Positions 19,459 through 44,270 of a stretch of DNA of 64,000 nt are shown here, piece by piece. Each line of letters begins with the position of its first letter. Position 1 is the stretch's first letter. Source of the stretch: Nemertoderma westbladi (taxonomy: Eukaryota > Animalia > Xenacoelomorpha); contig JAUCBJ010006747.1 in NCBI GenBank assembly GCA_032718475.1, positions 1-64,000 on the forward strand. The letters are read 5' to 3'. The translations under genes and the position numbers were made by a program. Below the pieces are notes generated by a model that was given only the letters and a program-made list of their open reading frames with translations, was not told the DNA's origin and ran no database searches.

Positions 19459-19725
19459 GGAGTCGTGGTCATGGGTCAGTTGATGGGGCTCATGCCGATG
19501 GAGTGGAACAAGTTCCGAGAGGAATACGGTGTGGGACTTGTGAATTCATTCAAGTGGGGGCGAGACGGGGAGAGACGAGTTATATCACTTCCGAAAGGGG
19601 GGCTTAAAACACGTCGTGTAGACGAATATATAATGTATAATATACATACTATAGTCAGATATAACCTTTTCCAATTAGCTACTGGGACTGGGGACTAATT
19701 GACTGGAACAGGAGGATAAGACGAG

Positions 19726-20135
19726 AGTAGTAGGAGAAGCAGTGTCCCCCTCATAGTCCTCCCTAGCTTGGGCTATGGGCATTCCATTCGGAGGGCTATT
19801 AAAAATGCCAATTTCCGGTGCTAAATTGTGGTGGGCGCCATATGTCACCATCGGCAGTTGCCATCAACCAATCGTAGCGTAGCCTAACCTCGCGATGCCC
19901 GCCTTACTCGACTACTGACTAACTACTAACCCTAATGTTATTCACCTTTTCGCCACGTTACCACCACTGTATACTGTATTTATGGTGACGACAACGACGA
20001 CGTGGCCGTCTACACGCATCACGCATATATTATATTATATCGATTGCCAACTCAACGATTTACCCACTGCCAAACCAACCAACCAGTATGATACATGAAA
20101 TTCCGCCACGTTCCAGCTACGCGTATACGAGCATT
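19726..20135 (+). repeat. Left TIR of the Maverick
   Basis: Reverse complement of 43338-43787; first ~240 bp almost identical, inner part has indels. Confidence 0.95.
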
Positions 20136-20825: not shown

Positions 20826-21018
20826 CTTTTCCCGCTATATTATAAATATTTTATGATTATTTATAAAATTTTGATGTTTTTAATTATGAAAAAAAAAAAA
20901 AAAACATCAAATTTTAAATAATCAAAAATTGTAGTAGTAATTGTATATACAGTATAACAGATTTGTTTGTTGTTGTGTATTGAGGTAATTATTTTCAATT
21001 TACTTTAAAATTTGGAAA

Positions 21019-21468
21019 ATGGATATTTTAAATGAAAAATGTCCAGTTTGCTATTCTAAGTTATTGCAACATCGAGATTATTATAAATGTGAAAATAAAC
21101 ATGCAACTTGCGTACAATGTATTGTACAATATTCCGAAATGAATAATTATTGTTCTAAAATTTGTCCTATTTGTCGCGCACCCATATCTAAGTTTAATAT
21201 AAAGTTGGCAAGATACCAACCCTATTATTGGAAAGAGCTTCGAAATATAACTTATATTTCTGCGGAAAGTAATGATCCGGGAGATTTATTTACAATATTG
21301 GAGAATATTTTTTATAGAAATGTAGTACGACGGTGTTGCTACTATATTCCTTATTTTTTTAGCAGCGAACATAAAAAAATCATTAGCGCGAAATTCTCGG
21401 GAAGTGATTTCCAAACCGCCGATGTTACCTATCATTATTTCGCGTATAAAGATGCTCACCATGCTTGA
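21019..21468 (+). CDS. RING finger (C3HC4) protein, putative E3 ligase
   Basis: CPVC-x11-C-x3-HATCVQC-x14-CPICR. Confidence 0.8.
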   Translation: MDILNEKCPVCYSKLLQHRDYYKCENKHATCVQCIVQYSEMNNYCSKICPICRAPISKFNIKLARYQPYYWKELRNITYISAESNDPGDLFTILENIFYRNVVRRCCYYIPYFFSSEHKKIISAKFSGSDFQTADVTYHYFAYKDAHHA

Positions 21469-21690: not shown

Positions 21691-22353
21691 ATGGCTGACT
21701 TTAATTCAGGTCCATATAATTTAAACTTTCAAATGGGAACGAGTATGATAATTTCTGGCCCATCTGGTTCTGGAAAGTCAACATTTGTTAGCAATTTAAT
21801 TAAACACAAGAATGGTTGTTTCAACGAAGCCCCATTGCGAGTATTGTATTGTTACGGGAGCAATCCCCCAACTATTCCTGGTATTACTCACCTTTACAAA
21901 GGTTTGCCAGAAAATATAGATAGTTTAGTGAATAGTCGAGATTTATTAATTATAGTTATTAATATGATTTATTAACAGAAACTGAGTCCAGTACAGCTTT
22001 AACTGTATTGTTTACTAAGGTAGCTCATCATTCCAATATATTTATTTGTTTTATAACGCAAAACATGTTTTACGGTGGGAAGCATAACCGCACAAGATCA
22101 ATTAATAGCCATACTTTAGTATTAATGAAAAATCCGCGAGACAGTTTATCGGTTTTAAATTTCGCGAAGCAGATGTTACCAGGGCAGACCAAATTTTTAG
22201 TAGATTCCTATCAAGATGCGACTATTGAACCATTTTCGCATTTCTTAATTGATTTACGACAGGAAACACCCTAACATTTAAGATTTAGATCGGATATATT
22301 TCGTAATCATAATTGTTACATTAAAAATTACATTGACTATAAACGTAGCGATA
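21691..22353 (+). pseudogene. A32/FtsK-like genome packaging ATPase (disrupted)
   Basis: Walker A GPSGSGKS; Walker B LLIIDDL restored by removing an 8-bp insertion TTATTAAT (~21956-21963); HH.N...ITQN, KNPRD and IDL motifs; premature TAA at 22272. Confidence 0.9.
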
Positions 22354-22967: not shown

Positions 22968-23018
22968 TGCCCTTTATAAGAGATTTGAATATACATATTA
23001 CTTGCGGTTGTCGAAAAG

Positions 23019-24108
23019 ATGCCACGCAAGATGAAACCGATTTTAAGCCGAAGCTTAGACAAAAAACTGTTAAGAATTTATTTAGATCCTTCATTCCCTG
23101 CGGGTTTGGCAAGTATCGCAAAATTAGCAAAAGCCGCAAACATCAAACCAGCTCAAGCCCAGAAATGGTTGAGCGGGCAAAAGACATACTCCCTTCACGC
23201 ACCATGTAGACATCATTATCCAACATCTAAAATATTTACGGGAGGCTTAAAAGATATATATATGATAGATCTGGTGGATATGCAGCAATATAAATCGCAA
23301 AATAATAATTATAACTATATATTAACATGTATTGATGCCTTTAGCCGGCTTGCTTTTGCCTATGGTATGAAAACAAAAAAGGGTATTGAAATTATTAGTA
23401 TATTGCAAAAAATATTCCAGAAAGGAAAACCAAACAGAATCGCAACTGATCAAGGGTCTGAGTTTCTAAATAAATCTGTAAGGAAATATTTAGATACTAT
23501 TGGTATACAGTATTATGTAATGTATTCTGTGAATAAGGCGGCTATTGTCGAGAGATTCAATAGAACATTAAAAACAAAGATGTTCAAAATTTTCACGCAA
23601 CGAGGAAATAATGTTTGGATAAAAATTTTACCGAAGCTCATTTATGCTTATAATAGGTCAGATCATAGGACAATAAAAATGACACCCATTGAAGTTAATA
23701 AATTTAATGAAACTGAATTAATGAATAGATTATATGGGAAATATAGACAGATTAATCACAAGAAAATAAAATTTAAAGTTGGAGATACAGTACGATTATC
23801 TATCGCTCGTACTGCTTTTGCTAAAGGCTATTGAGAACAATGGACACGTTAATTATTTATTATTCATCGGGTCAGATTGGATAGAGTACCAGCGGTAATG
23901 TTCGATATTAAGGACAGCGCTGGAGCTATAATAAATGGCTCATTTTATTCATACGAACTCCAAAAGGTCCACCCGAATAGTAATATTTATCTCCCGATTG
24001 ATAAAAATATTGGCAAACTTAAAGAACGTGTACGCAATGGGAAAAAATAATATTTAGTCCGATTCATCGGATCCAAGAAACAGTCGTGGGTACAGCATAT
24101 TCAATAAG
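23019..24108 (+). pseudogene. Retroviral-like (rve) integrase with C-terminal chromo-like tail, premature stops
   Basis: IDLVDM, CIDAFSR, TDQGSEF, KAAIVERFNRTLK (DDE core); FKVGDTVR..AKGY*EQWTR*LF; tail YELQKV..YLVRFIG..SWV. Confidence 0.92.
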
Positions 24109-24372
24109 TTTAGGTTTATACTGTATATTAATTCATTTTGGTCACATATGTCCGTAATTAATTAATCAATCAATATTAACTCGAATGATATTACTATACT
24201 ATAGTTCATTTGCTTTAAATAAAGCCAGTAAAATATTGATCCCTCGCATATACTGTAGAAGCGAAGCGGGAATGAACGTGGTCACCGATGTCTATAATTT
24301 AACATTATACCGTACTGTACTGTACTGTATGTACAAAGGAGTCAAGTAGAGAGAGCTTAAATAATAATAATA

Positions 24373-25254
24373 ATGGCTGTAGATACATATATCACTCTAC
24401 TTTCAGATAGCTCATTAAACACTTACCCCAATAATAACCCTAGCGAGTTTCCTGTTGATTTAGCCGAAGAATTATATATTGGTCCAAACGCTAAAATTGG
24501 ACTCGCGGAGATACAATACCAAGCAACATACAGTAATATTACTCTGCAAACTCAAATCTCGCTGTCAATCGGTGTAGATGCAAAAGATGCCAAATTATAT
24601 AGTTTATTTCCTGGTATGCATAGCTCTATTCAAGTCATTATTGATGATATAAATAAACTGTTTAATTCTGAAGCAAAATATAGAGATTTCGAATTCATTT
24701 TTAATACAAATAATTCTAGAATTAAATTTAAATTTCCTAAAAAGTTGAAAAAAATACAATTAAGTCTACGTGGTGATTTAATTCAAATTCTAGGCTTAAA
24801 ACCGTTATTGGATCAGAATCATCCGAGTATTCCGAATTGGGATATATACAGTACCACTACAGTGGATGAATTAAGCAATATAGAACAGCCGATATTAATT
24901 TTAAATTATAGTGGACCAAAAATTTCGGAAATTGGGATTTTAGATTTTCCAGCTCCCACAAATATTACTCGTAATAAAGATACTATCTTCATATATACAG
25001 ATATTATTAAGAGCTCATTTGTTGGTGACGCTTTAGCACCGCTCTTAAGAACCTGTCCTTTAACACAATTAAATCAAAAATATATTAATCACGAATACGA
25101 GAGCATTTGCTATTACCCGTTGTTGAATAAAAAACTAAAAACAATCTTAATTACTTTACGTGACGGTCAAGGTGAATTAATTAATTTCAACTGTGGTCGC
25201 ACTGTTATAACACTTAAGTTAATACGCGGTGGTGGTGGTGGTGGTGATGGATGA
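24373..25254 (+). CDS. Minor capsid protein (penton) 1
   Basis: N-terminal YITLLSDSS...YPNNNPSEF, GLAEIQY, IFIYTDII...VGD...PLLR, YYPL...I.I.LRD..GELINF..G..VITL typical of Polinton minor capsid proteins. Confidence 0.85.
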   Translation: MAVDTYITLLSDSSLNTYPNNNPSEFPVDLAEELYIGPNAKIGLAEIQYQATYSNITLQTQISLSIGVDAKDAKLYSLFPGMHSSIQVIIDDINKLFNSEAKYRDFEFIFNTNNSRIKFKFPKKLKKIQLSLRGDLIQILGLKPLLDQNHPSIPNWDIYSTTTVDELSNIEQPILILNYSGPKISEIGILDFPAPTNITRNKDTIFIYTDIIKSSFVGDALAPLLRTCPLTQLNQKYINHEYESICYYPLLNKKLKTILITLRDGQGELINFNCGRTVITLKLIRGGGGGGDG

Positions 25255-27377
25255 GTTCTACATTAGACTACCAAGTAACTCCTGTCCAATTGATTTTCCT
25301 CGTAATACTGGTAGTAATTATCAGATCAATTTCCATGGCGCCTTACCTATAAATCCAAACGAAAACTGGGTGGTAGGTATAAAAAGTATATTTTACTTAG
25401 CCACGTTACCGTCCATGTATAACTATGTACAGTCCCTATCTCATTCTAGATACCGTTTCTCAAACTGGGTACCTTTTCTCTTACCTCACTCTTACTAACT
25501 CAAACCTGTCTGGTTTACTCAAACCCAACTCAAACTCGCGTAACCACCCACTGTGCACTGTGTAGCATTCATACAACAAGCTGTCTGTGTTTAATGGCCC
25601 ACTTGCTTCTGTTATACTCTGCCTACGGGTTTGATGGTCTTCTGCTGTTATAACATTCCCTAAACTTGATTTGTTTGTGTGTAATTAACTCCAGTAGACA
25701 GTGAGAATTAAGTTGCAGACTCAGTGACTCAATTTATTTTTAAATTTCAGAATAAAAAAATTATATGCTAAATTATTAATTAATCTAAATCTCGAATAAA
25801 CTACTCGATCTACTAATTAAACTAAATTAATTTTTTATTGCATTTATTAAGTATTTATGACTCATAACATATTAACGTTATTTTACATTAAAATATAACC
25901 ATATAATATATAACCAACCAATTTTATAAATTTATTTTAATGTCGCGTATTTTCGCTAATGTTTCTAATGTTTAACTTTAATGTTTTACTAATGTTTAAT
26001 TCTCTATTACATCGTCAACACAATTATTCCCAATACATCCGGGTGTGGGCATACCGGGCAAAGGGGCCAGAGGAAACCTCTGTAATTATAGACAGGGCCA
26101 TATTTATGGGAGGGGGGTGGGGGGGGGGGGGGGGTGTTGCGAGGTCCCATATGCACTAATAATTCTTAATTAACAATTCGATTTTTAAACTGATATGTCT
26201 TGTAAGGCACCAATTGACATCAAACAGACAGACAACAGAGCACCAATTTCCCACAACAATATTCCCAGAATTAAAACTTTCTCTACAAACAGACCGAGCC
26301 AGTGTAGTTTAGTTAACAACATACATTTAGTAAAGCCCACAAAGGAACTGTGTGATTGACATGTCTTTTATGAGACACACGCAAGCCGGCCTGCCCAGCT
26401 TATGTAACTCAAGAGCCCAAGCAACACTAACAGACAGAGGCCCCTTCCCCATGTGGTGCCTCACTCAACCAGAGTAATTATCCATCCCGTACAGGAAGAG
26501 TAATGCTGAGTATGGCACAGTTGGAGGTCAACCTAACTCAAACCATGGTGCCAGACTCTAGTTTGAGTTAGATTGAGCTGGCTGCATCTTTCTGATTTCT
26601 CAACTCTTACCCCAGTCTTACCTACTGAAATTCTCCGTTGACTATCATTAGTAAACGGTTTGAGAAATGATACCCAGTTTGAGAAATAATATTCAGAATG
26701 AGATAGGGACTGTAGAGAATGTTATTTTATTAAAAAAAGGGAAAAAAAATTTTGAGGATACACTTCCATCCGGTTTGTTCTACAGTATCAATGACATTAT
26801 AGATTATTTTAACACTGGGGCGTTGAAAGATAAATTACAAATAGTTGAAAATACTCAGCAAAATAGGTTGCAATTTATTTTAGGGAAAACTGTACGAGAG
26901 TTATTTATAGGTCAACAATTAGCCTATTATTTTGGAATTACTGAAAATAATCTCGGCGCGAATTTAAATCCAAATTTTAAAATTATTTTGAAGACGAAAA
27001 ATAATATAAAGGGTTATTTAATAAAGGTTATCGGAAATGAAGAAAAAGCTTACCAGATGGTATTTTTATGCCCTCAACCACCCAATTCTATTCCAGAACC
27101 TAAATCGAACATGTACGTGACTACTAATATAATTGAAAATGAATATATTAATGACTTTGGTTTAGCCTTACTTCATCATGTCGCGATACCTGATGACGTG
27201 AAATATGGTAGTGTAATAAATAAAGAATTTGTCAAGGATACAATTCATTATATCCCTGTAAAAAAATCATATAAGATAACATACATTCATATTGAAATAA
27301 CAGACAAAGAAGGAAAAGATTTGAATTTTGAATACGGCACAACTTCAATTACCTTACACTTTAAAAAAATAAATTAA
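25247..27377 (+). pseudogene. Minor capsid protein (penton) 2, split by a MITE
   Basis: MDEFYIRLPSNS..FPRNT.SNY (25247-25429) joins in frame to ENVILL..MYVTTNII..YIPV..IHIEITDKEG..LNF..GTTSITLHFKK (26715-27377), giving 281 aa. Confidence 0.88.
25430..26712. mobile_element. Non-autonomous Tc1/mariner-like element (MITE)
   Basis: TIRs CAGTCCCTATCTCATTCT / AGAATGAGATAGGGACTG with inner TTCTCAAACTGGGTA match; TA duplication at 25428-29 and 26713-14. Confidence 0.9.
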
Positions 27378-27378
27378 A

Positions 27379-27945
27379 ATGGATTCCGATTTATTTCAAA
27401 GATACAGTAAACCTCAATATGGTGGTGCAGACTCTAATCTTGCTGTTGTTAAAGGTGGTAGAAGTACAAGAGGCTCGACGCAAGTTCCTGTTTTTCGAGG
27501 TGGTTCATATATTGACCCTTACGGACAACAAATTGGTGCATTTGGTCCAAACTTAAAACAACGTCGTTTTCAACGTTATCGTAGAGGTATGTTGCGAACA
27601 AATCAACACGGGGAAGGTATATTTACAGACGCTTTATCTACATTGAAAAAATTTGGTAAGCCATTAGCAAAAAAAGTGTTACAGAAAGCTTTACCATTTA
27701 CCACAAAATTTATGAGACAACACGTAATACCAAAAGGTAAGCGGGTCTTACATCAGCAGGCTAATACGGTTATTAATAAAGCATTAAATAAAATGAAACC
27801 ATCCACAAGATCGGTTGTAGAAAAAGTTTATAGAGACTTAAAGCGACGTACTAGACCAATGTCTATGAACATACATCATCGACGTAGTAAAAAGAGAAAA
27901 ATAAAAGGCAAACTGAAACACTGCGAAAAAAAGTATTTTTTAATA
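27379..27945 (+). CDS. Basic core (pVII-like) protein, currently in frame with the major capsid
   Basis: Very R/K-rich; Gly-Gly/GxG sites QYGG, VKGG, FRGG, QHGEG; precedes MSIIKELDLF. Confidence 0.6.
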
Positions 27946-29206
27946 ATGTCAATTATTAAGGAATTAGATTTATTTTCTACACAGCCAATACAGACTGAAT
28001 TTAAAGCAAAGCATTATGAAACAATTTACCCGGTATCCAATCTCAGAAGTGAGTCTAGGGAAGTCACGTTCCTTGTACCAAGATCCAATGAATTCTATAC
28101 GAAACTGCAAGATGCGTTATTAATTACAAAATGTACTGTACGGTGGGATAGACGACTTGAAAACTCCCATATTTATATGTTGAATTACCCCGCTGGAACT
28201 ATGTGGAGTGATATTAAAATAGACCTTAATGAGAAGCAGGTTGAAAATGGCAATAACCATTATTTCTACAAGTCGTACTTATCCAATTTACTATTTACAA
28301 CATACGAATCTAAAAATGGGCTACTGGGGGCGGGTGGATTTCATCAGCCTTTATCCGAACACGGAAATGAAATTGATCCTGGTGCGCATCCTATTGGCGA
28401 TGCCTTTAGTAAACAAATGCAATTTGTAAGTGGATTGACAATTGATTTTGATACTGAAACTAAAATAATACAACCCGGGTATGATTTAAGAATGCATTTT
28501 AGAAAAGTATCAAATTTGTTTATTTTTAAAATCACTCCAAACACAAACGCTGTGACAAATCTTCGGTTAGAATTAGATGAAGTAAAGATCCTAATCTCTA
28601 GAATGGAGGTTAATCCCGTAATAGAAAGCAGTCACCTAAAAGGTTTAGAGAGTTACGATATTGAATATCAATTCCAAAAAAAGGAGGTTACAACATTTAC
28701 TATTCCCGCACAAACCACAAATTACACCCAAACAAACATATTTGATGGTAAAAAACCCAAATTAGTTATTATCGGTTTTATAACAAATAATGCATTATTC
28801 GGGAGAATTAATTAGTAACCCCTTGAAATTTGAACATTTTAACCTTAGACGCGCGGAACTGATTGTAGACGGTCTTCCAGTAGGTGGTGTAATATACGAG
28901 CCTAATTTTACAGATGGAACATACATTTTTGAGTATACTCAATTAATGAAAAACATTAATACATATATTAACGGTTATGGAGGTAATAATATAGACCATG
29001 AAACCTACTTAGGTAATTGCCCACTCATATCCTGGGACCTAACCGCCGACGGCTATGTTAGAGATCCGTAACCATCGATATTTACTAACGGCCAATTAAA
29101 ATTAAGATTTGCCGAACCGTTGGTTGAGACCATAAATGTAATCGTTTTTATTATTTATGATCAATCATTAAGTTTAAATAGCAGGAAAGAAATACATATT
29201 GATTAA
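27946..29206 (+). pseudogene. Double jelly-roll major capsid protein (frameshift ~28805, in-frame stop 29069)
   Basis: ELDLF..PIQT, YFYKSYL..LL, IFDGKKPKLVIIGF, NPLKFEHFNL, WDLTAD, LKLRFAEPL.ETINVIV..YD motifs of Polinton MCP. Confidence 0.9.
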
Positions 29207-29208
29207 GT

Positions 29209-29661
29209 ATGTTATCTACAGAGGACCTTGATATGTTTCCAGTGGGTGGTCACTATTTGGGAGCGTTTCCATCTAACAAATTACCTAAATTAGATAATAA
29301 TAAGCGGAGAGATTATGGGTTAATAGTAAACACCGATAAACAGCATCTACCCGGGGTTCATTGGATAGCTATATATATACGAGATAATGAGGCTGAATTA
29401 TTTAATTCGTTCGGACCAAAATATCCAAACAGATGTATTGAAAAATGGCTTGAGAAAAATTCAGCAAGATGGCGTACTACCCAGAAACAATTTCAAGACC
29501 CCAGGAGGACCACATGTGGATTATACTGTCTTTATTACTTGGTAAATCGAATTCACACAAACTATCCAATGAGAGCGTTTACAAATAATGTCGAAATAAA
29601 TGAAATAATATTATATAAATGGCTTGTTAATTATTATAAAATAAACCAACAAGCGTTGTAA
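29209..29661 (+). CDS. Adenain-like cysteine maturation protease
   Basis: GAFPSNKLP, IVNTD..PGVHWIA, FNSFG, QFQ...TTCGLYC. Confidence 0.9.
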   Translation: MLSTEDLDMFPVGGHYLGAFPSNKLPKLDNNKRRDYGLIVNTDKQHLPGVHWIAIYIRDNEAELFNSFGPKYPNRCIEKWLEKNSARWRTTQKQFQDPRRTTCGLYCLYYLVNRIHTNYPMRAFTNNVEINEIILYKWLVNYYKINQQAL

Positions 29662-29692: not shown

Positions 29693-30298
29693 ATGGATAA
29701 TATTATTTTTGTTGATTTTCAATATTACAAGATAGACAATAAGGAATATCCAGTAGTATTTAAAGAATTTGCTATATTCGATTCTAATTACACCAAAACT
29801 AATGTAAAGACGTTTTTAATTAAAGGTCCACCTAATATTAAGTTATCAGCATTAGATAAAGCTCATGTAAACAATTTACGAGACATGACTTCGCATTTAC
29901 CTTGGGATTACTGTGACATTTCGCAAGATGACTTTAAAAAGTACATGAAGAGACATTTAAAATATAAAAGAAATATACATGTATTTGGGTTGATGAAGCG
30001 GGCAATATTAGTTTCCCAACTTGATGTTCTCGCACCAAATTCGATGGAGAAATTGTGGATATATCAATATCAGCAATATTACAATTATTTAACCCCCTGT
30101 CGCTTCCACGATCAATTTATTACACTAGAAAATAAATGTGCTTTCCACTTAAACACAAGGGATAACTGTCTGCGGTACTGCTCTGCAAAACGTGTTGGCG
30201 GGTTTGAATTGAAACGATTTTTCGTGAGAAAGCGTTTAACTGACACTGATGATAAACAGAAAGAAATAACTGCGGTGGAAGATGTACTCGTACATTAG
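29693..30298 (+). CDS. DnaQ/DEDD-fold nuclease-like protein with C-terminal Cys/His cluster
   Basis: IIFVDFQ..VFKEFAI, HLPWDY, VFG..K, C..H..C..H..C..CSAKRV; AATAAA downstream (~30348-30363). Confidence 0.5.
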   Translation: MDNIIFVDFQYYKIDNKEYPVVFKEFAIFDSNYTKTNVKTFLIKGPPNIKLSALDKAHVNNLRDMTSHLPWDYCDISQDDFKKYMKRHLKYKRNIHVFGLMKRAILVSQLDVLAPNSMEKLWIYQYQQYYNYLTPCRFHDQFITLENKCAFHLNTRDNCLRYCSAKRVGGFELKRFFVRKRLTDTDDKQKEITAVEDVLVH

Positions 30299-30786
30299 GT
30301 TTACTCTAAGCATGTAATGTGATGGGATAATATAATTGTTTTAATGTCAATAAAAATAATAAAAACATTAAAATCTATTTTTTTATATCTCAGTTTGACT
30401 GAAGGTGTAGGGCTTAAGTTTACACTCACAAACACACCGTACCTACCGGTAGCCGGCTGTTGTATCAGAGTTTAACTACCAGTAGCTGACTTTACACACA
30501 TACAGACATATAACAACAACGCTAAACTGTAGAACGGCAGAATGGGCAGAATGGCACCCCCAGCGCTTTAGCGTTACTTACTAAATAATAAAATTAAATT
30601 AACTCTGACATGGGGGTTCGTGAATGCAGCATTAGTGGGGCCCACCTAACAATAGGCCTACTGGTACCGGCGCTGTAGCACTCTTGTAACTGTATACTTG
30701 GATAGAGCAAGGGCATGCAGGTTTCTTTGATTTAAGGATTAGGCTATTACACTTGAATGCTTCCAATTTTCTGTTTACAACTTTAA

Positions 30787-31000
30787 TTGGTCTAATCTAT
30801 ATTACTGCGGGCTACTACTGTTGCATAGGCAAGCCTATACAGCTATAGTTAACTTTATGCGGCCCCCTTTTTCGAATGTTGACCCAATATGGTTGGTCTA
30901 ATCTACATTACTGTGGGCTACTACTGTTGCATAGGCAAGCCTATACAGCTATAGTTAACTTTATGTGGCCCCCTTTTTCGAATGTTGACCCAATATGGTT
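30787..31000. repeat. ~105-bp tandem duplication
   Basis: TTGGTCTAATCTA(T/C)ATTACTG...GACCCAATATGG occurs twice in direct succession. Confidence 0.9.
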
Positions 31001-31328
31001 TACGGTTAACCTTTAGAACTCACACTAGGCGCACCTTCATTCGGTTAGGCATATAGGCCTAATCACTACTCCTCGACTGAAAGCCTCCTAGCACATTGAT
31101 ACAATAGGTGTGGCTAGCAATATATAAAATTCACCGCGCCCAAGTTCATTCATTCACTTCATGTTGTAGGCCTATAGGCCTATAAAACATAATTAGTTTA
31201 TTTATGTATTCGCTTTTTTTTTAATTAGATATAAAATATAAAATACACAATACAATACAAAAACCTACTGATACCGGTAACACACGTGACTAATTATATA
31301 GGCCTATGAGTCTACTTGCTGTACGAGT

Positions 31329-31682
31329 CTACTGATGTATTCTCGGATCAGATGGAAGTAGTAGAGTTGGTGTTGGAACTGGAGCTGCTGCTATATCTTC
31401 ATGTTCATCCCAGTTCTCTCCCCTACTATAATTGTCTAGACTTATCTGATGCGCCGCTCCAGGTTGTACTCTAACGTTTAAATTGAAGTTTTTATTGGTC
31501 GTCAATGTGGTTTGGTGACCTTGGCTGCCGCTGGTTTTATTTTTAATCATTATTGTTATTTCACCGTTGTTGTTTTTTAAATGTAATTCAGTTACATTTA
31601 ATGATGTGAAATAAAGGTCGTCTCCATCAACATCAAATTTTAATAAACAGTCGTCGCTATTTTCAATGAAAGAAAATGCCAT
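31329..31682 (-). CDS. Unknown ORF (117 aa) inside the Maverick
   Basis: ATG-initiated ORF in a compositionally distinct interval; no motif recognised. Confidence 0.4.
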   Translation of the reverse strand: MAFSFIENSDDCLLKFDVDGDDLYFTSLNVTELHLKNNNGEITIMIKNKTSGSQGHQTTLTTNKNFNLNVRVQPGAAHQISLDNYSRGENWDEHEDIAAAPVPTPTLLLPSDPRIHQ

Positions 31683-32422
31683 CTTGGATGTCGGTGTTGG
31701 ATGTTGGATGTCGGAACGGATGTTGGTTGATTGATAGAGAAGGATTGTCGGAACTGAAGTTTGTTGAGGTTAGTTTTTTTTTTTTTTTCAAATATGAAGA
31801 TAAGTTAGGCCTAGTCTATACCGGTATTTATTTTTTTATTTTACGGTAGGGAAACAAAATTATAGTTCACTGTTAGAAAAATTGAGTTTATATATATTTT
31901 TGTATAGGGTCGCAGATGTTTAGATTACAAAATTCTCATAGTTAACAAAATGCACAACATAAACCTTTCCCATGCGGATTAGTTAGCGATATATGCTCTG
32001 TTCGTTGTTCTATTCTGAATGTAGGGAGATGCATAGCTGATGTTTTAATAATATGTACCGGTATACAGACTAGTAACAGATAGGAGGGCATCGTCTTTGA
32101 CTATGAATACCAGCGCATAGCCCTAATCTTTTCTCAACGAGCTTAGCGTTGCCTGCCGCACACATACACACTCATAAGTAACAGATGCGCTATTGTAGCT
32201 CACTCGTGAGCAGCGATGCTTAGTTAGCTAGCTAGCTAGCTACGGCCGCTGAGTAAACTATGCCTACTCGAGTGTTACAAGCAATCGCTCTACTGAAGTT
32301 AGTTAGTTAGTTGTTGATTTTAAAAAAATATTCATAAATTTTTTCCAACCAAATTTAATATATACTTTACAGTAAAAATCTCCACCACCAAACAGCAACA
32401 ACAACAACAACAACAATAAATT

Positions 32423-32985
32423 TCACTCGCACGAATTATATTTTACATCAAAAACCCTCGCACCAAACAATAATAAATTATTAACCAGTTTGTTGAATAT
32501 AGGATAATATATATGAAATTTAAACGGGGAACACATTAATGTACATTTACCAGTGTAGAAGCAGCAAACAACAACAATATTATTTATTCTGACTTTACAG
32601 TTATTGAATATTTCGGGCTCGTATTAAATTTCTAGTTTAACATTATCAAATATAACATAAAACCCGATATTGTTTATAAGTAACCTATAAATTACGGTAT
32701 CGATACTAAAAATATAAGTACACAAATTGATTGATTTAAAAATCAAATTAATGTTTGTTTTTTCGAATATATGCTTTTTCACTTTATTAAAATTATATTT
32801 TCTACCGAGAATTGTTATTCGTCCATTTGTAAACATTAATATGGTTGCACCAAATACCTTATATATAAACTGATTAGGTTTGAGTACAATTTTACCATTC
32901 AATTGATTTTTAATTCTTTTAAATTAAGTCCATAAATGATCTGCTTACAACTTATATTTTTATTTACTATTTGATAATTCATCAT
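32423..32985 (-). pseudogene. TATA-binding-protein-like gene (one frameshift, one in-frame stop)
   Basis: Reconstructed MNYQIVNKNISC..LNLKEL/NQLNG..KPNQFIYKVFGATILMFTNGRITILG..*YEPEIFNNCKVRINNIVVVCCFYTGKCTL; two TBP-like repeats (ATALIFSSGK.V..G and YEPELF..IF.SGKVVL). Confidence 0.62.
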
Positions 32986-35900
32986 CAACACCATCGTCTT
33001 TTGGTTCTTCATAAATTGGTATATTTGATATTTTTATAGGTTTTTTGAGGTTTGTTTTATAGTGCCCCCAAGGAAGTGATTGATTTTTATTAACCCAATA
33101 AAGTTTATCATCAAAGCTACTGAGTGCAAATTTATTTTGCTTTAAGGTATAAATACGATGTAATTTAGATTGAAATCTGTGTATGTTTTTTTTTATTTCT
33201 TCATTTGAGTTATATGCTTTTAAATATTCTTCATGTTCGATTCTTCATGTGTAATATTCGTTTCCACAATAGCTCTTGTAATACCTTTTGCTCTACGAAT
33301 ATTTTTGTTATTCCATTCCAAAATTGAATATAATTTTGGTCTTAAAAATACTGCTTGTTTAATTTCAAGTGAAGCTAGTTCATCTTTACAGTAATAAAGT
33401 CTCGATTTATTTTTATCGCTGTAGAGAGGGTGATCCTTAGGGTAATTGGATGTATCTAAAATATTATTTTTAATTAATGCTTTTAAAAAATTATTCTGCG
33501 ATGTATTATAGTAACATCCTATTAAAGAGTCTGTATCTGATGCAGCAATTTCAATACGGCAGTTTAATTCTTTCTCAATAGGTAGCAATTTATTATAAAA
33601 CAGCTCATACATATCCAATTTAGCCAAGTCCAACACAGTGCTACCAATAAATATAGGCTTATCGAGAGTTACAGAGTCTTTCACTAATAAATGTCCCGAT
33701 AATGTATTATTGTATATTATAAATTGTTCATGATTAATACGATTTACCAATTGGTCGCATTTATCATTGCTATTTGCAATACGAAAGTTACATCGATCTC
33801 TTATCTTTTCTATTGATTTGCCAAATAACGAATTATTAAGCAATTTCGCGACAGCTGTTTCAATGTAACTTTTTGCTAGTCGCCTTTGATTAATATTAAA
33901 ATCGATGTAATTTTTAAATACAAATTCTTGTTGAAAAGAATATAATTTATGTAGTTTAGTAACAATTAATCCATGTTTTATATAAAATTTTAACAGTTTC
34001 AAATGTAAATGATAAAACTCTTTATCAAATTGCGTCAGCAAGAGTTTTGGTATAGGCATCCTATATTTACGGGAGGTACCTCTTTGTATCGATAAGTTAT
34101 TAAATTGTTCCCTCATATAAGGCGAAAGCATTGATTCATTTATACTTAAATGCTCTGGAGCTAACGGTAATTGTAATGTTTGATCGTGAATAGCTTTGGG
34201 ATAATTTAAATCACATATTAAAAAATATCCAGTAGATCCATCAATTTCTAAATCTACCAAGTACTCGATTAGTTTTTCTGGAATTGCATTCTCTAAGTGT
34301 TTAATACTTACTTCTTTGAATTGTGAGGTGGGTAGTTTTTTACTTAAATTCCCAGAATATAAAGAGTTGAAATCAATATTAAAAATATGGCATTCTTCCT
34401 TAGTAGAATCATATGTACTTGTTCCTGGTATATTTGATTCTATATAATGCTTTCGACAAAATGAAACACCACCCCTAATTGATTTTTCAAAATCTCTATA
34501 TGTCTGATAATCCTTTATTAATTCTATTTTACATTTATTATATTTTAGTGCGCAATCATAGGTAAATGACGCGATACTACAGTAAAAAACCGCTTCTAAA
34601 TCGTAATTTTGTTTACAAACCTTCCTAAAATTCTCAAATATATCAGCAAGCAAACAAACATTGAGTTTTAAATAGGCTAAAAGATAATCTTTGAGATTCA
34701 CACAGTCGAATTGTACCCATGATAATTCCGCAAACCTATAATCTTCAATTGTGCATGTTTTTTGACTTAAGTTACTAAAAAAATTATTTATAGACGGCAA
34801 ACCAGTATCATTAAATTTATTTATATCTGTCAAGTACTCGTATGGAAATACTCCTTTCCGTTTAATTGTTGAGTTATTCAAGTTTGGATAAAAATATTTC
34901 ATTTCTTGTAGAGTAATAGGTAAAATTGAGCTTATATCATGACTCGCCACATCCTTTGTTGAACACTCAACTAAATTACTTAAAGAAAAGCTTAAAAATT
35001 GATATGTGTCTAAGAAACGTAACTCAATTTTCTTAGAAGTGTTTTTAATTGGGATAAATGTACTCAGTGAAATATATCGTTCTGTATTTCTCGGTATAAC
35101 CTTTATATCCCAATCTGTGTATTTCTTATCTCTAAATCCGGTTTGTAATATACAATGTATATCATAATTACTGGAATTATGCCCGCAAAGTACATACAGG
35201 TATCGTTTCAATGATAAACTTTGGTCACAACTATTACAGGCTGCCGCAATATATTTACCTGTAATATGTGAATGATGTCTGTTTTTCCCTACATTATTAT
35301 TTAAAGTAACATTACAATAGAAACAAAATTTTGCTTGTTCAAAATTTACAAAATCAATATTAGTAAATGACATAGTTTTATGAGTGTATATTTCTGACCA
35401 ACAACATAATTCAGTTAAATCAGTATATAATGAATCTAAGAAATCTTGAATACAATTATTATTATTTGACTTTACGAATGTTTTCAAATGACATTTTGGA
35501 GCATCAATTAATTCAGTATTAGGAACAATTAAATAACTCACAGCACACGGTATATGCTCCTGTATAATTTGATTATTAACTGAAGGTTGTAAGATACATT
35601 CTATATCAAAGTAGGTGACAAACAATGGGGTTAAGGTTCTATCTAAATTTGTAAAACTAATGTGTGTTCTTTTTTTATTAGGTAGTTTCTCTCGTTGACT
35701 TCTTCCTTGGTAGCATGCGAGACGGTGTCGATGAAGAACTTCCGCTCGAAAAAAGTGAGCCAAACACCTTTCACAATATTTCCTATTCCCGATATGAAGA
35801 GCTCTCGTATTCAGCAATCGATTCAAGTTAGTTATGCTAACATAATGATTCAGTTTAGGTACATTGTTATTTTTTACTACAAGTAATATATTTAATAACT

Positions 35901-36112
35901 GTTTATCAGGTGTAATTTTACTAAACGGAGGTTGTCTTAATATAGATACAGGGGTGCGTTTGTTGTCGTTATTCCAACATAGTAAATTAATTATATATTT
36001 TGAATTTTGTTTTTCAAAAAGTTTAATCGCTAACTGCCACTCTGTTGGATAATCATTTTTCCCGTTGTCAAAAATGAAATGACTCATATAATTTTTGTAC
36101 GACGAAGTAAGC

Positions 36113-38324
36113 TGATAAACAACCGCGACACCTATACTAACAGCAGAACTGTTGAACAGACCAATACCCGTTAATATCCTTCTGCCAACCTAATAAGTTC
36201 TCGTCTAACCAATAAGACACAAAGACTGCTCTACTGTTAAGTAAAGGGGATCAGGAGCGTGCTATTACTAAATTGTAAGGGTTGCTAAATACAAAACCGC
36301 TACTTACCGTTGGATGGCGCTAATCTGCCGTCCGCTAATATATTTTACTAAATTTACACAACTCCTGCAAAATCGCTTGTTCCTTTCTCTACCGATCGCT
36401 CGATAGAGAGCTAACTGTTCGAATCTATAAGCCACGCGGGAATAACCAAATCAATAAATCCGAGTCGGCTCCCTAAGCTTACTTAAGACGAGTACGAGGG
36501 GCTTTGCACTCAGAGTATATTCTTACGCCTAATTTTACTACTGAAATACGCTAATGCCTACGTCTTTTCTAATCGCGAATACTGGGGGTTCCCTAACGGA
36601 ATGTGTGAATGCGAGAATATTTAAATAAATCAAAATTGGTACAGTACAATGTCTTTCGTAGGTGTTACCGCTCTGGGTCTAAACTTGCCTGCAGCTGGCT
36701 TTAGGCCAGCAACTTACTAGTGTCTTGCGTACTAACTATTGCGATCTAGTTTATTGCCCGCTAATTCAAATAACCGCTCAGCGTGAATAGTTTACGGTAC
36801 TCTAATTATTACCTTAGCTACTCTCCGCTATGCTGCGTACTAATTCTTAATTTTACTAATTAATTACAGTCACAAATATGTAACAGCGCACTAATTACTA
36901 AGAGTTCCAGAATGCGTAATTCTAATTTATTACACAACAGGTTTCACTAGTAATAGCCTAAAATGCCGTATTACTTTGACCTAATCAGTAATTATTTGTT
37001 GTAACTAAGAAATAGAAATCAATCAAAAGGGAAAGGGTGCCTACCTAAGCATTCGTAATCACAGGCACACTTCAGTAACACACCAATCAGTGTCAGCAAT
37101 CACAGATCACAATAGCACGACTTGCAATTATACAATCTGCAATTATATAATTCGCAACTTACTTACGTACTTACCCACTTACTTACTGTAAGGTATGCAG
37201 GCCCCTCCCGGGTACATCTAGGCTTCCTAACTAACCCAATTCCTGCCCCCTAATACTAAATAGAGACAAAACCTTGGATCATCAGCCCCCTAATTACTGT
37301 ACCGGCGAGCGGTCTCCAACCCACAGTCCAAACTGCCCGACCGCAACGTTGACCCCCGCCAGCGTTGCCCGCTTTTGAATCCTCCGCTCTCCCTTAGTCG
37401 CCCAACCCCCCGATGTGCCCACCGCCCACTGGCGCCTTAGCCCTCCATTATGCTAATAGCTACCGTAGCGGCGCATGCAAATCACAAAGTCTGACAGTCT
37501 CAGAAATCCCTTAGGATTATTGCGCAGAAAGGAATCACGTAGAACCATTAATCAAAAGGTAGAAATCATAGTTCAGTTGTAATTAGCAGTAATCGACAGG
37601 AATTAATTGAGAAACACAAGCAAGAATAATCGCACTCGAATTATTTTAAGAAACTAATCAAAATTAGCAAATTGCAGAAAATCAGTCAAAAAATACATAG
37701 GGACAGCTCAGCAAGTACAACAGCAATAAGTGGGGTGTCACGTGGGGTTCTACCGGCACGCCGTCAATTTATAGGTGATCCGAGTGGGATGATGCAATAG
37801 GGTGACTCAATCGCTCTCCTATTGGCTCTCCAGTCCGTGCTAGCACTAGACCAACCTGGAAGCAGCTAGTCCAATAAGGAGGCCGGATTGTAGCCCTATG
37901 CCCTCAAATTATTACCATATATGGTAATGGTTCACGTCTCTGGCTGCTGAATGGCCAGGACAGCGTCCCTATATGCTAGCCCTACTAAAGCTAATATCAG
38001 CAAGCACGGAATCCAGGGTCCGAATAAACTTACCCTGGAACTATCTACATATAACCTAATACAAAATTACGTAGGTAGGGCTACATACTATACAAAATGA
38101 ATGGATTCAACTATATGGGTGTTCCGATTTCCCTATCTAAATATCATTGCGTCATTATGCCTTATCTAAAATATTATGCTGCACAACGGACTAATATTAC
38201 GTACAGTATAACGGACTAATATTGCATACTGCATAACGGACTAATATTGCATACTGCATAACGGACTAATATTGCATACTGCATGATGACTAATAATATG
38301 GATACAGCGCCATATACCGTAACA
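36113..38324. mobile_element. 2.2-kb TG...CA insertion, probable solo LTR
   Basis: Starts TGATAAAC, ends CGTAACA; TSD TAAGC at 36108-36112 and 38325-38329; removal restores PolB frame NNKQLTSSYKNYMSHF; 25-bp tandem repeats at ~38186-38285. Confidence 0.85.
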
Positions 38325-38847
38325 TAAGCTGTTTGTTGTTTTTCACTTTGCTACCAAATTTTGCGGTTATAATAGCCCATTTGAAACAGTCATTATCAGC
38401 CGTTTGTATATTTATTGTACAATTTTTACCTGATAGAACCTTAGGTAATTCCATATATCCATGCCCCTTATATAGTAACGACCTACACTTAGATTCAGCT
38501 AATTTAATTTCAACCCTTAATAAAGATTTAATACGCCACCCTGAACCACGTGTGTTAAAGATGGCTATTTTTTGTAATATATTTTCCACCACATACTCAA
38601 ACCATGTGTCAAAACTTTGTGATGAATCTACAGTATTAATAGCACCACCGGAAGAATTAAAATAAAAAGTTTCCAATTGCTCGCCTTCTGAAAAATGTGA
38701 TCTGTACATTAATACATTTAGACCTAACCACAGTCTAAGAACATTCATTTCTTTCAATCTATCTAATATTAACTGAAGAATATTACCTCGAATTTGCGTT
38801 AATGCTGTTTCTACATCGGGATAATCTCTAGAAGTTGGGAGGTCGTG

Positions 38848-40999
38848 CACTAGCGTAGCGAGGGTAGGGTCCCAGGGTCCCGGGACCCTACCGTGGAGAT
38901 TCCAACTTACATCGTCAAGTTCCGTTAAATTAAAAAAATTATAATGACAAGTGCAATAAACCGAATATTAGAAAATATTCGAAGTTGAAGTTGCTTTGGA
39001 AAGGAGCCCGACCCCAGACCAGATACAATCCACATTATCCCAGGCAGGTTGCCAAAGAAAATAAGTAGTAGAAAGGAGACCATATACCCCATCAAAGTGT
39101 TGTAGCCAGGCCTCCAGCCACACTACCAATAATTCCCTCAGGCACCCCCCCTCCCCCCCCCCCCCCCCCCCGCCCCCATGATAAGGCATCATAATATCAT
39201 ACAATGTTCTTAGAAAGCCAGCTTATTACTTAGGCCTATATTATATAATCTCTCAACCAGTTTAATAGTCTGTAATGTAAAGCAATGAAATGGAGCCCAA
39301 TTGACCACTGCAGGGGGGCGCCCACTGGCTCCTGCCTTGGTTTCTGTGCTTTGATTAGACGACGTCGCTGTGCCTTGCCTGTCAAGCAGGGTTCAATATA
39401 TACCAATGAAAGATAGCATAAATAAGATAGGCACTCTGACTCTGATGTAATATAATGAATTATGTAATTTTTTCTGGGCACACTGACCAACGTGATTGGA
39501 TATTGCGTAGCTTGTCTTGCCGAGTCACAACTAAATAACCTGTGGGTGGCTATGTATTTTAATTCAATATTATTATTAATACCATGAAAATTACTTTGAA
39601 ATGTAATTAATTAGAACATTAATTTTTTTTAACAAAAAAACGTTTTTTTTTTTACTTTCAATAAATCAAAAAAGTGTATTTAATAATGTACCGGTACCAT
39701 AATTAGTTCAATTTCAAAATGTGGCAGTTTATAAAATAATATACCATGGTGTGGGGTGGGGGATTGTTTCACGAAGCGACATTTAACTAAATGGAAATCG
39801 CCGATTTGTAAATAAGGTATTTAAAAAACGGAAGCACATTTAAATTTTACGTCCCTTAATTTAAATGACATGAATTGAAATTTGCCTACTGTCATTTTGC
39901 AATACTTTTATGTTATCAATACATGTTGTTATGATTCCATGGTAGTAGGGCCTATAGTACTAGTTTTTAAGAATAAGTTAACTGTTCTTAATAGAAATAT
40001 TATTAAATTTACTGAAAAGCCATGACAGCATGACGACCAGACCAGTTGCTATGCCGTATAACTATTATTATGTTAATGAGTTTAAATGACACATCATTAC
40101 GTAAATGATTTAAAGCTAAATGACAGGGGGATAAATGACACGCGAATAGCAGTTTCTTGAAACATAAAAACTTTCTGTTATAATTAAAGTATTATTTTTA
40201 ATCTTTCCAATTAAGCCAAATTAAATGACCGTATGTAAAACAGTCCCCTCAGTTTAATTATAATATTAATTTAATTTATTAATTCAATTTCATTTGTAAT
40301 TTCAGTAACTTACTTTATAACTATGATTTTATCATATTAATTCTTAATAGCGGATTTTCTAAATTACTCATCTTTACTGGGGGGGGGGGGGGGGGGGGGG
40401 GGGCTTTACTGGGGGAATGAACATGTACTGGTGCGCATTACTCAGAATGAGTAGTATACCGACTACTGTACTACAGGCTACAGGTTGGGTGCAACCTTCG
40501 CCCGAGTACAACCTTCGCCCGCGCCAATTTCGCCCGTCCACACTTCACCCCGGGGAAAACCTTCGCCCGCAAGGCAATCTTCCACCGCGAACAACCTTCG
40601 CCCAATAAGATTTGTGTTAGTAACCATTTTAGTTACCAATTAAGGGAAAGGAGCAGGTTACAGAGACGGCTTCTTCTAACCAAAACAATAAACGATGTTG
40701 TTACCAATTTAAGGTAAGGAGCAGGTTACAGAAACGGCTTTTTCTAACCAAAACAATAATTGTTTAGTTGGCGATGGTTGCTCGCGGAGAAGATTGTCTG
40801 CGGGCGAAGTTTGCTGCGTACCCTACTAAACATTACACATCACGTGTGGCGGGCATTTTGTTAAAATTCCAAACAATCACACCTGGACTACGCTGGGGGG
40901 GGGGGGGGGGCTCTTCCCCCACACCCACAACTACTATAAATATGAATTACAATTTGGGGTCTGGGACCCTACCGTAGGAAATTCCTGGCTACGCGGCTG
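38848..40999. mobile_element. Non-autonomous hAT-like element
   Basis: 8-bp TSD AGGTCGTG (38840-47; 41000-07); imperfect TIRs CACTAGCGTAGCGAGG / CCTGGCTACGCGGCTG; subterminal GGGACCCTACCGT at both ends; removal restores YVHDLPTS. Confidence 0.88.
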
Positions 41000-41605: not shown

Positions 41606-42670
41606 TTACATGTTAGGATAATAATCTGGTTTCCATGGAGAATTAGTAACTAGATCTACTGGAGCTGGGTTAACAGCAACTTTCTGTTTCTTTGCAGGTG
41701 ATGCGTTGGTAAATTTACTCGATGATCTTGGCTTCCGAGGTAATATTTCAGGAAAGACCTGTTGCGGTTGAGAGCAACTCTCTTCAACATCCGGATTAGG
41801 TGATGGGATCTCTACGAATGCTTTAGGTTTATCCAAAAGGACAAAACCATCTACATTGGCTTCAATAAGAGAAACGCCATCCATAGCCTCTTTGAGAAAA
41901 CTAATATGGGCTTTATCATTCAAGTAATGCAACTCAATAGAATTTCCACCTGCTCCTACTTCAGTAGAATTATCGGTGTTGGTGATAATAATTTTTTTAT
42001 TATTGGTTTTAATCATTTTGAGACGGTCTGATAATTGAATGATATTTTTATCAAAAAGATGCTTGTCTGGTTCATCAATTTGAGTGTCCCACTCTCGCAA
42101 CAAAACGGTTAGTTCCTGATTTGACAAATTGAAACCCGTATAATAGTTAAAACCAACACTATCAGCGTATCTGACGCTGATTTTCCATAAGCCAACATAG
42201 TTGGTTCCTTTAAAAGCTGTTACAAATCCAATAAACTCTGGATTTGATAATTCAATGTAGAATTGATCGCTAATAATCTCTAGCGGTGGAGAGAGAAATT
42301 GCAATAATTTCCCTCTGTATTGAATTAGAACTTCAGTAAAAGCTTTGTTGAGGACTTTACATTTGCCTTGTTTCTGAACGTAAACATCACCCGATGTGGG
42401 GTTGATAGAAATATTCAAATTTCCCCGCGCAAAACGAAGAGCGGCATATATCCTACCTGGTATAATTGCTGGTCTGGATTGATGTTGGTTGTTGGTTGTT
42501 GTTTCTAGAATGTCTAGCAAATAGCGGGTATCTTGATGGGAAAAACAAATTGATTCGTTGTCCTCCTGAGATTCCACAATAAAATACTTGCTGTGAACGA
42601 CGGTACAAGTATATTTATTGTAAGTAAATTTCCAGCTATTTGTTGCTCCGGTTTTTTGCGTTAAGGCCAT
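41606..42670 (-). CDS. PC4-like (ssDNA-binding/coactivator) domain protein, 354 aa
   Basis: IELSNPEFIGFVTAFKGTNYVGLWK..TGFNLSNQELTVLLREWDTQID resembles PC4 core VSVRDFKGKVLIDIRE..KGISLNPEQWSQL..DID; NLS-like PAKKQK near the C-terminus. Confidence 0.55.
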   Translation of the reverse strand: MALTQKTGATNSWKFTYNKYTCTVVHSKYFIVESQEDNESICFSHQDTRYLLDILETTTNNQHQSRPAIIPGRIYAALRFARGNLNISINPTSGDVYVQKQGKCKVLNKAFTEVLIQYRGKLLQFLSPPLEIISDQFYIELSNPEFIGFVTAFKGTNYVGLWKISVRYADSVGFNYYTGFNLSNQELTVLLREWDTQIDEPDKHLFDKNIIQLSDRLKMIKTNNKKIIITNTDNSTEVGAGGNSIELHYLNDKAHISFLKEAMDGVSLIEANVDGFVLLDKPKAFVEIPSPNPDVEESCSQPQQVFPEILPRKPRSSSKFTNASPAKKQKVAVNPAPVDLVTNSPWKPDYYPNM

Positions 42671-43337: not shown

Positions 43338-43787
43338 AATGCTCGTATACGCGTAGTTGACGCGTGGCGGAATTTCATGTATCATACTGGCTGGTTGGTT
43401 GGTTTGTTGGTTTGGCGACAGCAGTCGTTGAGTTGGCAATCGATATAATATAATATATAATATCGAGGGAGGGTATATGCATGATGCGTGTAGATGGCCA
43501 CGTCGTCACCATATACAGTATACAGTGGTGGTAACGTGGCTGGTGGTGGTGGTAACGTGGCGAAAAGGTGAATAACATTAGGGTTAGTAGTTAGTCAGTA
43601 GTCGAGTAAGGCGGGCATCGCGAGGTTAGGCTACGCTACGATTGGTTGATGGCAACTGCCGATGGTGACATATGGCGCGCACCGCAATTTAGCACCGGAA
43701 TTTGGCATTTTTAATAGCCCTCCGAATGGAATGCCCATAGCCCAAGCTAGGGAGGACTATGAGGGGGACACTGCTTCTCCTACTACT
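43338..43787 (-). repeat. Right TIR of the Maverick
   Basis: Reverse complement of 19726-20135. Confidence 0.95.
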
Positions 43788-44270
43788 GACGAGGGACTCA
43801 CTTATTATATACAACGTATACGTGTATGAGACCGTGGGAACCCAACAGAAAGAACTTAGAGAGTGAGAGTCAAGGGGTTGAGTATCAGGGGAACATGGGG
43901 AGAAGGTGCTAGAGTTAAGGGAGAAAAGTAAAGGGTGTGAGGTCCGAGTATGGGGAGCGAGCGGAGAAGAGGATGAGTCCTAAGGGACTAGTGAGAGAGG
44001 AAGGGACAACAAAGTCCGAGAGATAAAATTGTGTGATGAGTGAGGGCGATCGTCTAAAACAGAGACGCTGGATGCCTTGGTACAGCTTAGCTCGCAGATG
44101 TACCAAGGATGGGTAGTGAAAATAGACCCATGGGGACCGGCCTGGAAAGCTGACCCCGAGAAGAAAACCTCCACCCCACATCCAATCTTAGATTAGATTC
44201 CAGCGGAATTGAAGCGCTCTTAAGGTTTATGCTATCTTCTCACCGGGAAGATAGCATGGGGGGGGGGGGG

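What the first reader, a model, noticed from the sequence alone, without database searches (positions are those of the whole stretch)
32423..32985. Cryptic TBP-like gene coupled to the 3' end of the Maverick polymerase
Seen: extending the 92-aa ORF through one upstream frameshift (~32905) and one TAA (32624) gives a ~187-aa protein. It has two halves, each containing a F-x-x-G-[RK] strand motif (ATILMFTNGRITILG; CCFYTGKCTL), an N-terminal IVN..SC..LNLKEL and a YEPEIF motif. Its ATG overlaps the last codons of the reconstructed PolB. Established: these are hallmark motifs of the TBP saddle, and TBP homologues occur in large nucleocytoplasmic DNA viruses but are not part of the canonical Polinton gene set. 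Inference: this lineage encoded its own promoter-recognition factor.
Basis: partly seen in the sequence, partly recalled or inferred. Interest (0 to 1): 0.85.

Follow-up and report, generated by a model that had tools for sequence, protein, structure and literature searches.

The report
Broken Maverick copy of viral TBP
A 24-kb virus-like Maverick element carries, right behind its DNA polymerase gene, a now-broken but once-conserved relative of the cell's TATA-binding protein, which likely served to steer the host's RNA polymerase to the element's own genes.

Summary
Observation confirmed. Read through its internal stop, the ORF hits Pfam TBP above the curated cut-off (E 4e-5). A profile of intact TBP-like genes from related Mavericks ranks its three pieces 1-3 of 1,430 window pieces, in order; 0 of 2,000 shuffles come near. 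Two intact relatives fold as full TBP saddles (Z 17.4 to human TBP). Sister copies mostly lack both breaks, and listed differences favour third codon positions (29 of 43, P 5e-6). So the gene was under selection and this copy is a pseudogene. It shares a family mark: Pro at the first intercalating Phe, in 51 of 51 relatives. Overlap with PolB occurs in 0 of 13 relatives. No shared promoter word was found in this element, though 5 of 7 relatives have one. Tree placement is unresolved (AU p 0.47). The scan noted Maverick TBPs before (38 findings, at least 5 genomes); in print I found only figure-legend labels. The function is inferred.

The parts
32899..32985 (-). TBP-like gene, piece 1: ATG and first strand/helix (holds the Asn matching yeast N69); ends at the frameshift
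   Evidence: profile positions 10-28; weak alone, E 4.6
32624..32923 (-). TBP-like gene, piece 2: KP-x-Q stirrup, T-I-L-M-F-T-N-G-R strands, helix, first strand of repeat 2; ends at the internal TAA
   Evidence: E 2.4e-7 among 1,430 window pieces
32420..32623 (-). TBP-like gene, piece 3: YEPEIF acidic stirrup, F-Y-T-G-K strand, last helix, TGA
   Evidence: Pfam TBP E 0.073 alone; E 0.0012
33032..33061 (-). Two canonical TATAAAA boxes 76 and 53 nt upstream of the TBP ATG, inside PolB coding sequence; candidate host-read promoter (inferred; the distal box lies on conserved PolB codons)
32960..33244 (-). PolB C-terminal piece; its last 26 nt overlap the TBP start
33220..36189 (-). PolB middle piece (989 codons); broken from the C-terminal piece near 33226
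   Evidence: (up to 40% identical to PF03175-bearing proteins)
38290..38967 (-). PolB N-terminal piece, separated from the middle by about 2.2 kb of non-homologous DNA
19726..19967 (+). Left terminal inverted repeat (242 nt, starts AGTAGT; 6-bp target duplication at 19720-19725)
43546..43787 (-). Right terminal inverted repeat (99% complementary; target duplication at 43788-43793)
21691..22274 (+). Packaging-ATPase-like gene in two pieces (Walker A visible; label from recall plus tblastn to relatives)
22989..23834 (+). rve integrase piece
   Evidence: PF00665, E 1e-10
24361..29071 (+). Putative minor capsid, PZ and major capsid block (labels recalled; only homology to relatives tested, no Pfam hit)
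29203..29661 (+). Adenovirus-type protease
   Evidence: PF00770, E 6e-6

Best explanation
This is a decayed copy of a Maverick-encoded TATA-binding-protein relative that was kept by selection in the active element and likely acted as the virus's own promoter-reading factor. Shown: the TBP family match; a full two-lobed saddle predicted for two intact relatives; three of the four intercalating Phe sites and the acidic YEPE stirrup kept, with the first Phe site replaced by Pro; an open frame and third-position bias among sister copies. Inferred: the host's own TBP would read the TATAAAA box inside the PolB 3' end and make this protein early. The protein would then bind a non-standard TATA-like word in front of the packaging and capsid genes, use its acidic stirrup to recruit host TFIIB and RNA polymerase II, and switch on late genes. 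The overlap with PolB is likely local compaction, not translational coupling. The gene identity is about 95% secure; the stated confidence is for the mechanism.
For: Pfam TBP over cut-off. Three pieces rank 1-3 of 1,430 and are collinear; 0 of 2,000 shuffles reach the score. 11 of 11 aligned relatives hit PF00352, and their profile hits 35 PDB sequences, all TBPs, at E 1e-30 to 7e-18. Models of relatives: pLDDT 93 and 94; Foldseek top hits are TBPs, E 3e-10; Z 17.4, rmsd 2.9, 167 aligned to human TBP, with the next fold at Z 6.4. Sister contigs: all depth in 4 of 4 runs reads other letters at 32625, and the length difference at 32906 covers all depth in 3 of 4 runs. A contig 82% identical has 44 differences and 0 gaps over 247 nt; 19 of its 26 listed differences are third-position. 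5 of 7 integrase-bearing TBP+ relatives have a shared upstream word with C or G (ATAAAC, CATAAAC, TTAAGC; at most 1 of 200 null sets). A TATA[AT]A lies 52-58 nt before the TBP start in 3 of 11 relatives, as here. Precedent: herpesvirus TBP mimic with the TATT box (PMC6541308, passages).
Against: No significant shared upstream word in this element: best 6 of 200 in 1 of 12 tests; 81 and 49 of 200. 4 of 14 loci without a detected TBP also have a shared word, though A/T-only. This copy lacks two residues nearly fixed in the family: the Pro after YEPE-x-F (50 of 51) and the final Gly (51 of 51); no sister difference is listed at those codons, but the tables are cut. The tree puts it on a 5.58 branch, and the AU test does not reject placement outside the Maverick family (p 0.47). 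There are no expression, binding or start-site data, and this copy itself was not folded.
Confidence: 0.55

Rival explanations
1. The TBP-fold protein works in replication or packaging: it binds the A/T-rich ends or single-stranded DNA with PolB rather than promoters.
For: It sits downstream of PolB on the same strand in 11 of 13 relatives and overlaps it here. One intercalating Phe is lost family-wide. Giardia TBP, which lacks three, prefers ssDNA (PMC12209930, passages). No promoter word was found in this element.
Against: The YEPE stirrup (TFIIB contact, recalled) is the best-kept motif: its two Glu and the Phe are in 51 of 51. Three Phe remain. The distance to PolB varies and 2 relatives carry the gene on the other strand.
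Confidence: 0.15
2. It is a decoy or competitor: it soaks up host TFIIB or sits on host TATA boxes and dampens host transcription, without reading viral promoters.
For: The acidic stirrup is kept while DNA-face residues drift. No cognate word was found here.
Against: Lineage-specific upstream words occur in 5 of 7 TBP+ relatives. The central Asn and three Phe sites are kept.
Confidence: 0.15
3. It is an independent capture of a host TBP or TRF paralogue by this lineage alone, not a member of the wider Maverick TBP family; it may still read promoters.
For: AU p 0.47; very long branch; no direct hits. No host or animal TBP/TRF sequence was available to test.
Against: It shares the short K-P-x-Q stirrup with Pro at the Phe site (51 of 51 family, 0 of 25 archaeal). 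It scores 43.6 bits against the Maverick profile and 14.4 against an archaeal one.
Confidence: 0.1
4. It is a passenger with no function, or a chance match.
For: Two breaks in this copy; marginal Pfam score; I/N/K-rich make-up flagged as odd.
Against: Shuffle control; breaks absent from most sister depth; third-position bias, P 5e-6.
Confidence: 0.05

Closest known systems
Cellular TBP (Pfam PF00352; human 1cdw, yeast 1ytb, archaeal 2z8u)
   Same: Two-repeat saddle, F-x-x-G-K/R strands, YEPE-x-F stirrup, central Asn, three of four Phe sites.
   Different: First stirrup shortened with Pro at the Phe site; second central Asn replaced (Ser in most relatives, Thr here); about 21-28% identity for the folded relatives; encoded by a mobile element.
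TBP-labelled gene in MELD viruses with adintovirus-like PolB (Starrett et al. 2021, PMC8502044; Fig. 5 legend passage read, figure not seen)
   Same: A TBP-like gene in an element with adintovirus/Maverick-type PolB.
   Different: Only a label there; no family, residue or promoter analysis in the passages seen; the section concerns non-animal datasets.
Beta/gamma-herpesvirus TBP mimic (KSHV ORF24, EBV BcRF1, HCMV UL87; PMC6541308 passages, PMC12529657 abstract and outline)
   Same: A viral TBP fold proposed to direct host RNA polymerase II to late genes through a modified TATA box.
   Different: ORF24 is multidomain, binds Pol II directly, needs five partners and is described as incompatible with TFIIB binding (section heading). 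The Maverick protein is a bare saddle with the acidic stirrup kept, and no partner was found.
Giant-virus (Nucleocytoviricota) TBP homologues (BFVD hits: Heterosigma akashiwo virus, Aureococcus virus, ASFV B263R-like)
   Same: Same fold, virus-encoded.
   Different: Those viruses mostly encode their own RNA polymerase (recalled); none was seen in this 24-kb element, so it must rely on the host's.
Mavericks/Polintons (PMC8097293, passages)
   Same: (AGT)2...(ACT)2 ends, long terminal inverted repeats, 6-bp target duplication, PolB, integrase, ATPase, protease, two gene modules.
   Different: TBP is not among the eight core genes listed there; 'TATA' occurs 0 times in that paper's main text.

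Membership tests
TBP fold (PF00352) | Profile match over the curated cut-off | tested here: met
   23.8 bits vs 22.9, E 4e-5, two stretches
TBP fold (PF00352) | Two-repeat saddle structure | tested here: inconclusive
   Met for two intact relatives; this copy was not folded and is linked by profile only
Canonical TBP | Four intercalating phenylalanines | tested here: not met
   Three kept; first site is Pro here and in 51 of 51 relatives
Canonical TBP | Acidic second stirrup (YEPE; TFIIB contact, recalled) | tested here: met
   YEPEIF; the following Pro is lost in this copy
Canonical TBP | Binds TATA DNA and recruits TFIIB | not testable with these tools
   Needs binding assays
Maverick TBP-like family | Short first stirrup K/R-P-x-Q/M | tested here: met
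   KPNQ
Maverick TBP-like family | Groups with the family in a tree | tested here: inconclusive
   Inside on a 5.58 branch; outside placement not rejected, p 0.47; no animal TBP/TRF rows
Maverick TBP-like family | Shared non-standard word upstream of capsid-block genes (lead from earlier scan notes) | tested here: inconclusive
   Not found by exact k-mers in this decayed copy; found in 5 of 7 relatives
Herpesvirus TBP mimic | Extra Pol II-binding and C-terminal domains; six-protein complex | tested here: not met
   About 187 codons, saddle only; no partner identified
Maverick/Polinton | Terminal inverted repeats with (AGT)2 ends and a 6-bp target duplication | tested here: met
Maverick/Polinton | PolB, rve integrase, protease, ATPase | tested here: met
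   (ATPase by motif and tblastn only)
Maverick/Polinton | Jelly-roll capsid proteins | tested here: inconclusive
   Homology to relatives at the expected place; no Pfam hit, not folded

The most novel reading that the evidence does not exclude
A widespread Maverick clade runs a one-protein late-transcription switch: a bare TBP saddle with a rebuilt first stirrup that reads a lineage-specific TATA variant and borrows host TFIIB and Pol II. This element shows an extreme, fast-evolving version whose own host-read TATA promoter is embedded in the polymerase's coding end, giving a minimal early-to-late cascade in a 24-kb virus.
Probability: 0.4. Interest if true: 0.78.

Novelty: new variant of a known kind. 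Interest (0 to 1): 0.5.

Why it matters
How integrated Mavericks turn on their capsid genes is not known, and virions have not been observed for the vertebrate ones (PMC8097293, abstract start in listing). A self-encoded TBP would give a testable switch, and a natural series of TBP variants each paired with a different box (CATAAAC, TATAAAC, TTAAGC in relatives) for studying TBP specificity. This copy adds evidence of selection among sister copies and shows how far the family can drift. As a pseudogene without a detectable box, it is a weaker test case than the intact relatives.

Tried and rejected
No whole genome is held, so intact copies could only be seen as contig differences. Direct searches with this copy: PDB none relevant; 28 candidates, none significant; 0 of 1.84 billion; viral contigs none (PolB piece alone also none). 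No RNA holder is listed; run X5 is only guessed to be RNA and was not used for expression. Promoter-word search in this element was negative (one search timed out). A by-eye CTTAA word before four capsid-block genes was not significant (3 of 8 for the exact word) and was dropped. Translational coupling was rejected as a family feature (0 of 13 overlap). AATAAA at the PolB stop was not used, as the word occurs 2.1 times per kb. Splicing is not needed: sister contigs cross both breaks without a joint inside the gene. The careful tree did not finish; the quick tree was used. PF00352 search of five viral records: only 1 held, no match. A partner search failed: ORF368 has no Pfam or atlas hit. No complex prediction was run, as only a prokaryotic TFIIB stand-in was on offer. 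Earlier findings by place, relatives and narrower words gave nothing.

Full report
Setting. The finding lies in a Maverick/Polinton at 19726-43787. It has 242-nt terminal inverted repeats, 99% complementary, AGTAGT...ACTACT ends and a 6-bp target duplication. It carries an rve integrase and an adenovirus-type protease, a split ATPase-like gene, a putative capsid block (labels recalled; homology to relatives) and a PolB in three pieces. No whole genome is held.

Observation. On the minus strand an ATG at 32985 opens 28 codons; a second frame runs 32923-32423 with one TAA at 32626-32624. The ATG lies 26 nt inside the last PolB piece, in an acidic tail beyond the end of PolB homology at about 33040.

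Identity. Read with X at the stop, the main frame hits only Pfam TBP: 23.8 bits against a cut-off of 22.9, E 4e-5. Alone it finds no relatives. I therefore fetched 99 loci with related PolB; 13 of 99 hold an intact TBP-like ORF. Many loci are short: the count is 7 of 19 among those with at least 5 kb past PolB, and 7 of 20 among those with an integrase hit. Eleven aligned relatives all hit PF00352; their profile finds 35 PDB sequences, all TBPs, and 429 proteins in the large collection. A 131-sequence profile without this copy ranks the three window pieces 1-3 of 1,430, at profile positions 10-28, 37-112 and 130-159; the first piece is weak alone. Eight of the 11 seeds were found with this copy as query, so the seed set is not fully independent. 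Even so, the best of 2,000 shuffles scores 7.8 bits against the real 43.6. Models of two intact relatives (pLDDT 93 and 94) match TBP saddles: Foldseek E 3e-10; Z 17.4, rmsd 2.9 over 167 residues against human TBP, with the next fold at Z 6.4. Viral structure hits are giant-virus and herpesvirus TBP-like proteins. This copy itself was not folded, so its fold rests on the profile link.

Was it a working gene? Five of 7 listed runs were laid; one may be the source sample. At the middle base of the internal stop, all depth in 4 of 4 runs reads other letters than this copy. At 32906 a length difference covers all depth in X3, X4 and X5 and 41,951 of 119,946 in X1. The PolB break near 33226 is likewise absent from most depth in X3, X4 and X5, but shows in little of X1's. 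Summed depth near 1e5 in X1 suggests many copies but is no copy number. A contig 82% identical aligns over 247 nt with 44 differences and no gap. Using only listed rows (40 of 92 and 40 of 52) and leaving out the break codon, 29 of 43 differing positions in the gene are third codon positions (P 5e-6); 19 of 26 for the diverged contig. The gene was under purifying selection, and this copy has decayed.

Residues. Yeast numbers follow the offsets; the role of the four Phe is from PMC12209930 (passages); the TFIIB role of the acidic stirrup is recalled. Aligned with a canonical TBP and 25 archaeal TBPs, this copy keeps the F116, F190 and F207 sites, both F-x-x-G-K/R turns and YEPE. The N69 site is kept in piece 1 by the profile alignment (the multiple alignment misplaced this short piece). 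The F99 site is Pro here and in 51 of 51 relatives, against Phe in 25 of 25 archaea. The N159 site is Thr (Ser in most relatives). Unlike its family, this copy lacks the Pro after YEPE-x-F and the last Gly.

Origin. The quick tree separates Maverick TBPs from canonical ones (SH-aLRT 100) and puts this copy inside, on a 5.58 branch. The AU test does not reject an outside position (p 0.47). The shared Pro stirrup and 43.6 versus 14.4 bits favour membership. No animal TBP/TRF was available.

Coupling. In 11 relatives the gene is 401-5,547 nt behind PolB on the same strand, in 2 it is on the other strand, and none overlaps. Two TATAAAA boxes lie 76 and 53 nt before the ATG; 3 of 11 relatives have a TATA[AT]A at 52-58 nt. 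An X3 contig spans the proximal box, and its two differences both lie elsewhere. The distal box sits on conserved PolB codons, so it may be incidental. A separate host-read promoter is more likely than translational coupling; this is inference.

Target promoters. Earlier scan notes suggested a shared TATA-like word. I tested it. Five of 7 TBP+ relatives have one at no more than 1 of 200 null sets; 4 of 14 loci without detected TBP do too, but with A/T-only words. This element has none. Decay, uncertain starts or a degenerate word could hide it, but it counts against the mechanism here.

Mechanism. Most likely (0.55) an early viral TBP that reads late promoters and recruits host TFIIB and Pol II, by analogy with herpesvirus ORF24 and its TATT box (PMC6541308, passages; PMC12529657, abstract and outline). 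Rivals: a role in replication or ssDNA binding (0.15), a decoy (0.15), an independent capture (0.10), no function (0.05).

Prior knowledge. Six searches found, for Mavericks, only TBP labels in figure legends of Starrett et al. 2021 (PMC8502044 and its preprint 10.1101/697771; passages). Term searches found no TATA in PMC8097293 and no TBP in 10.64898/2026.10.13.758929. Figures and supplements were not seen and may name such genes; subscription journals are not covered. The scan has 38 earlier findings in at least 5 genomes; these are leads, not support.

Verdict. A real, formerly selected, now broken TBP-like gene of a Maverick; a new variant of a known kind (viral TBP homologues); interest 0.5.

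Noticed in passing
window 36030-38295: About 2.2 kb of non-homologous DNA, starting with a 25-nt tandem repeat, splits adjacent PolB residues; insertion or intron, not resolved.
   Followed up: partly
window 41609-42670 (-): 354-aa ORF with a stretch that resembles a PC4/Sub1 ssDNA-binding fold by eye (recalled); no Pfam or atlas hit.
   Followed up: partly
window 20989-21468 (+): RING-finger-like accessory ORF near the left end (weak Pfam hits).
   Followed up: no
window 29693-30298 (+): 201-aa ORF after the protease with an exonuclease-like D-x-Q...KEFA start by eye (recalled); no relevant Pfam hit and no tblastn hit in the related loci.
   Followed up: partly
window 32907-33040: Some sister contigs in run X1 carry length differences in multiples of three (3 and 15 nt) in or near the PolB/TBP overlap, which keep both frames.
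   Followed up: no
window 30653-31813 and 39231: The palindrome TAGGCCTA occurs 7 times in intergenic DNA of the element, far above the Markov expectation.
   Followed up: no
L014 10321-10764, L036 11333-11782: A subgroup of about 150-aa relatives lacks most of two helices yet still folds as a saddle.
   Followed up: partly
L013/L015, L014/L036, L028/L031/L032: Upstream words track TBP subgroups: CATAAACA, NATAAACA and YTAAGC respectively.
   Followed up: partly
window 3557-5029 (+): Flanking F-box ORF outside the element.
   Followed up: no
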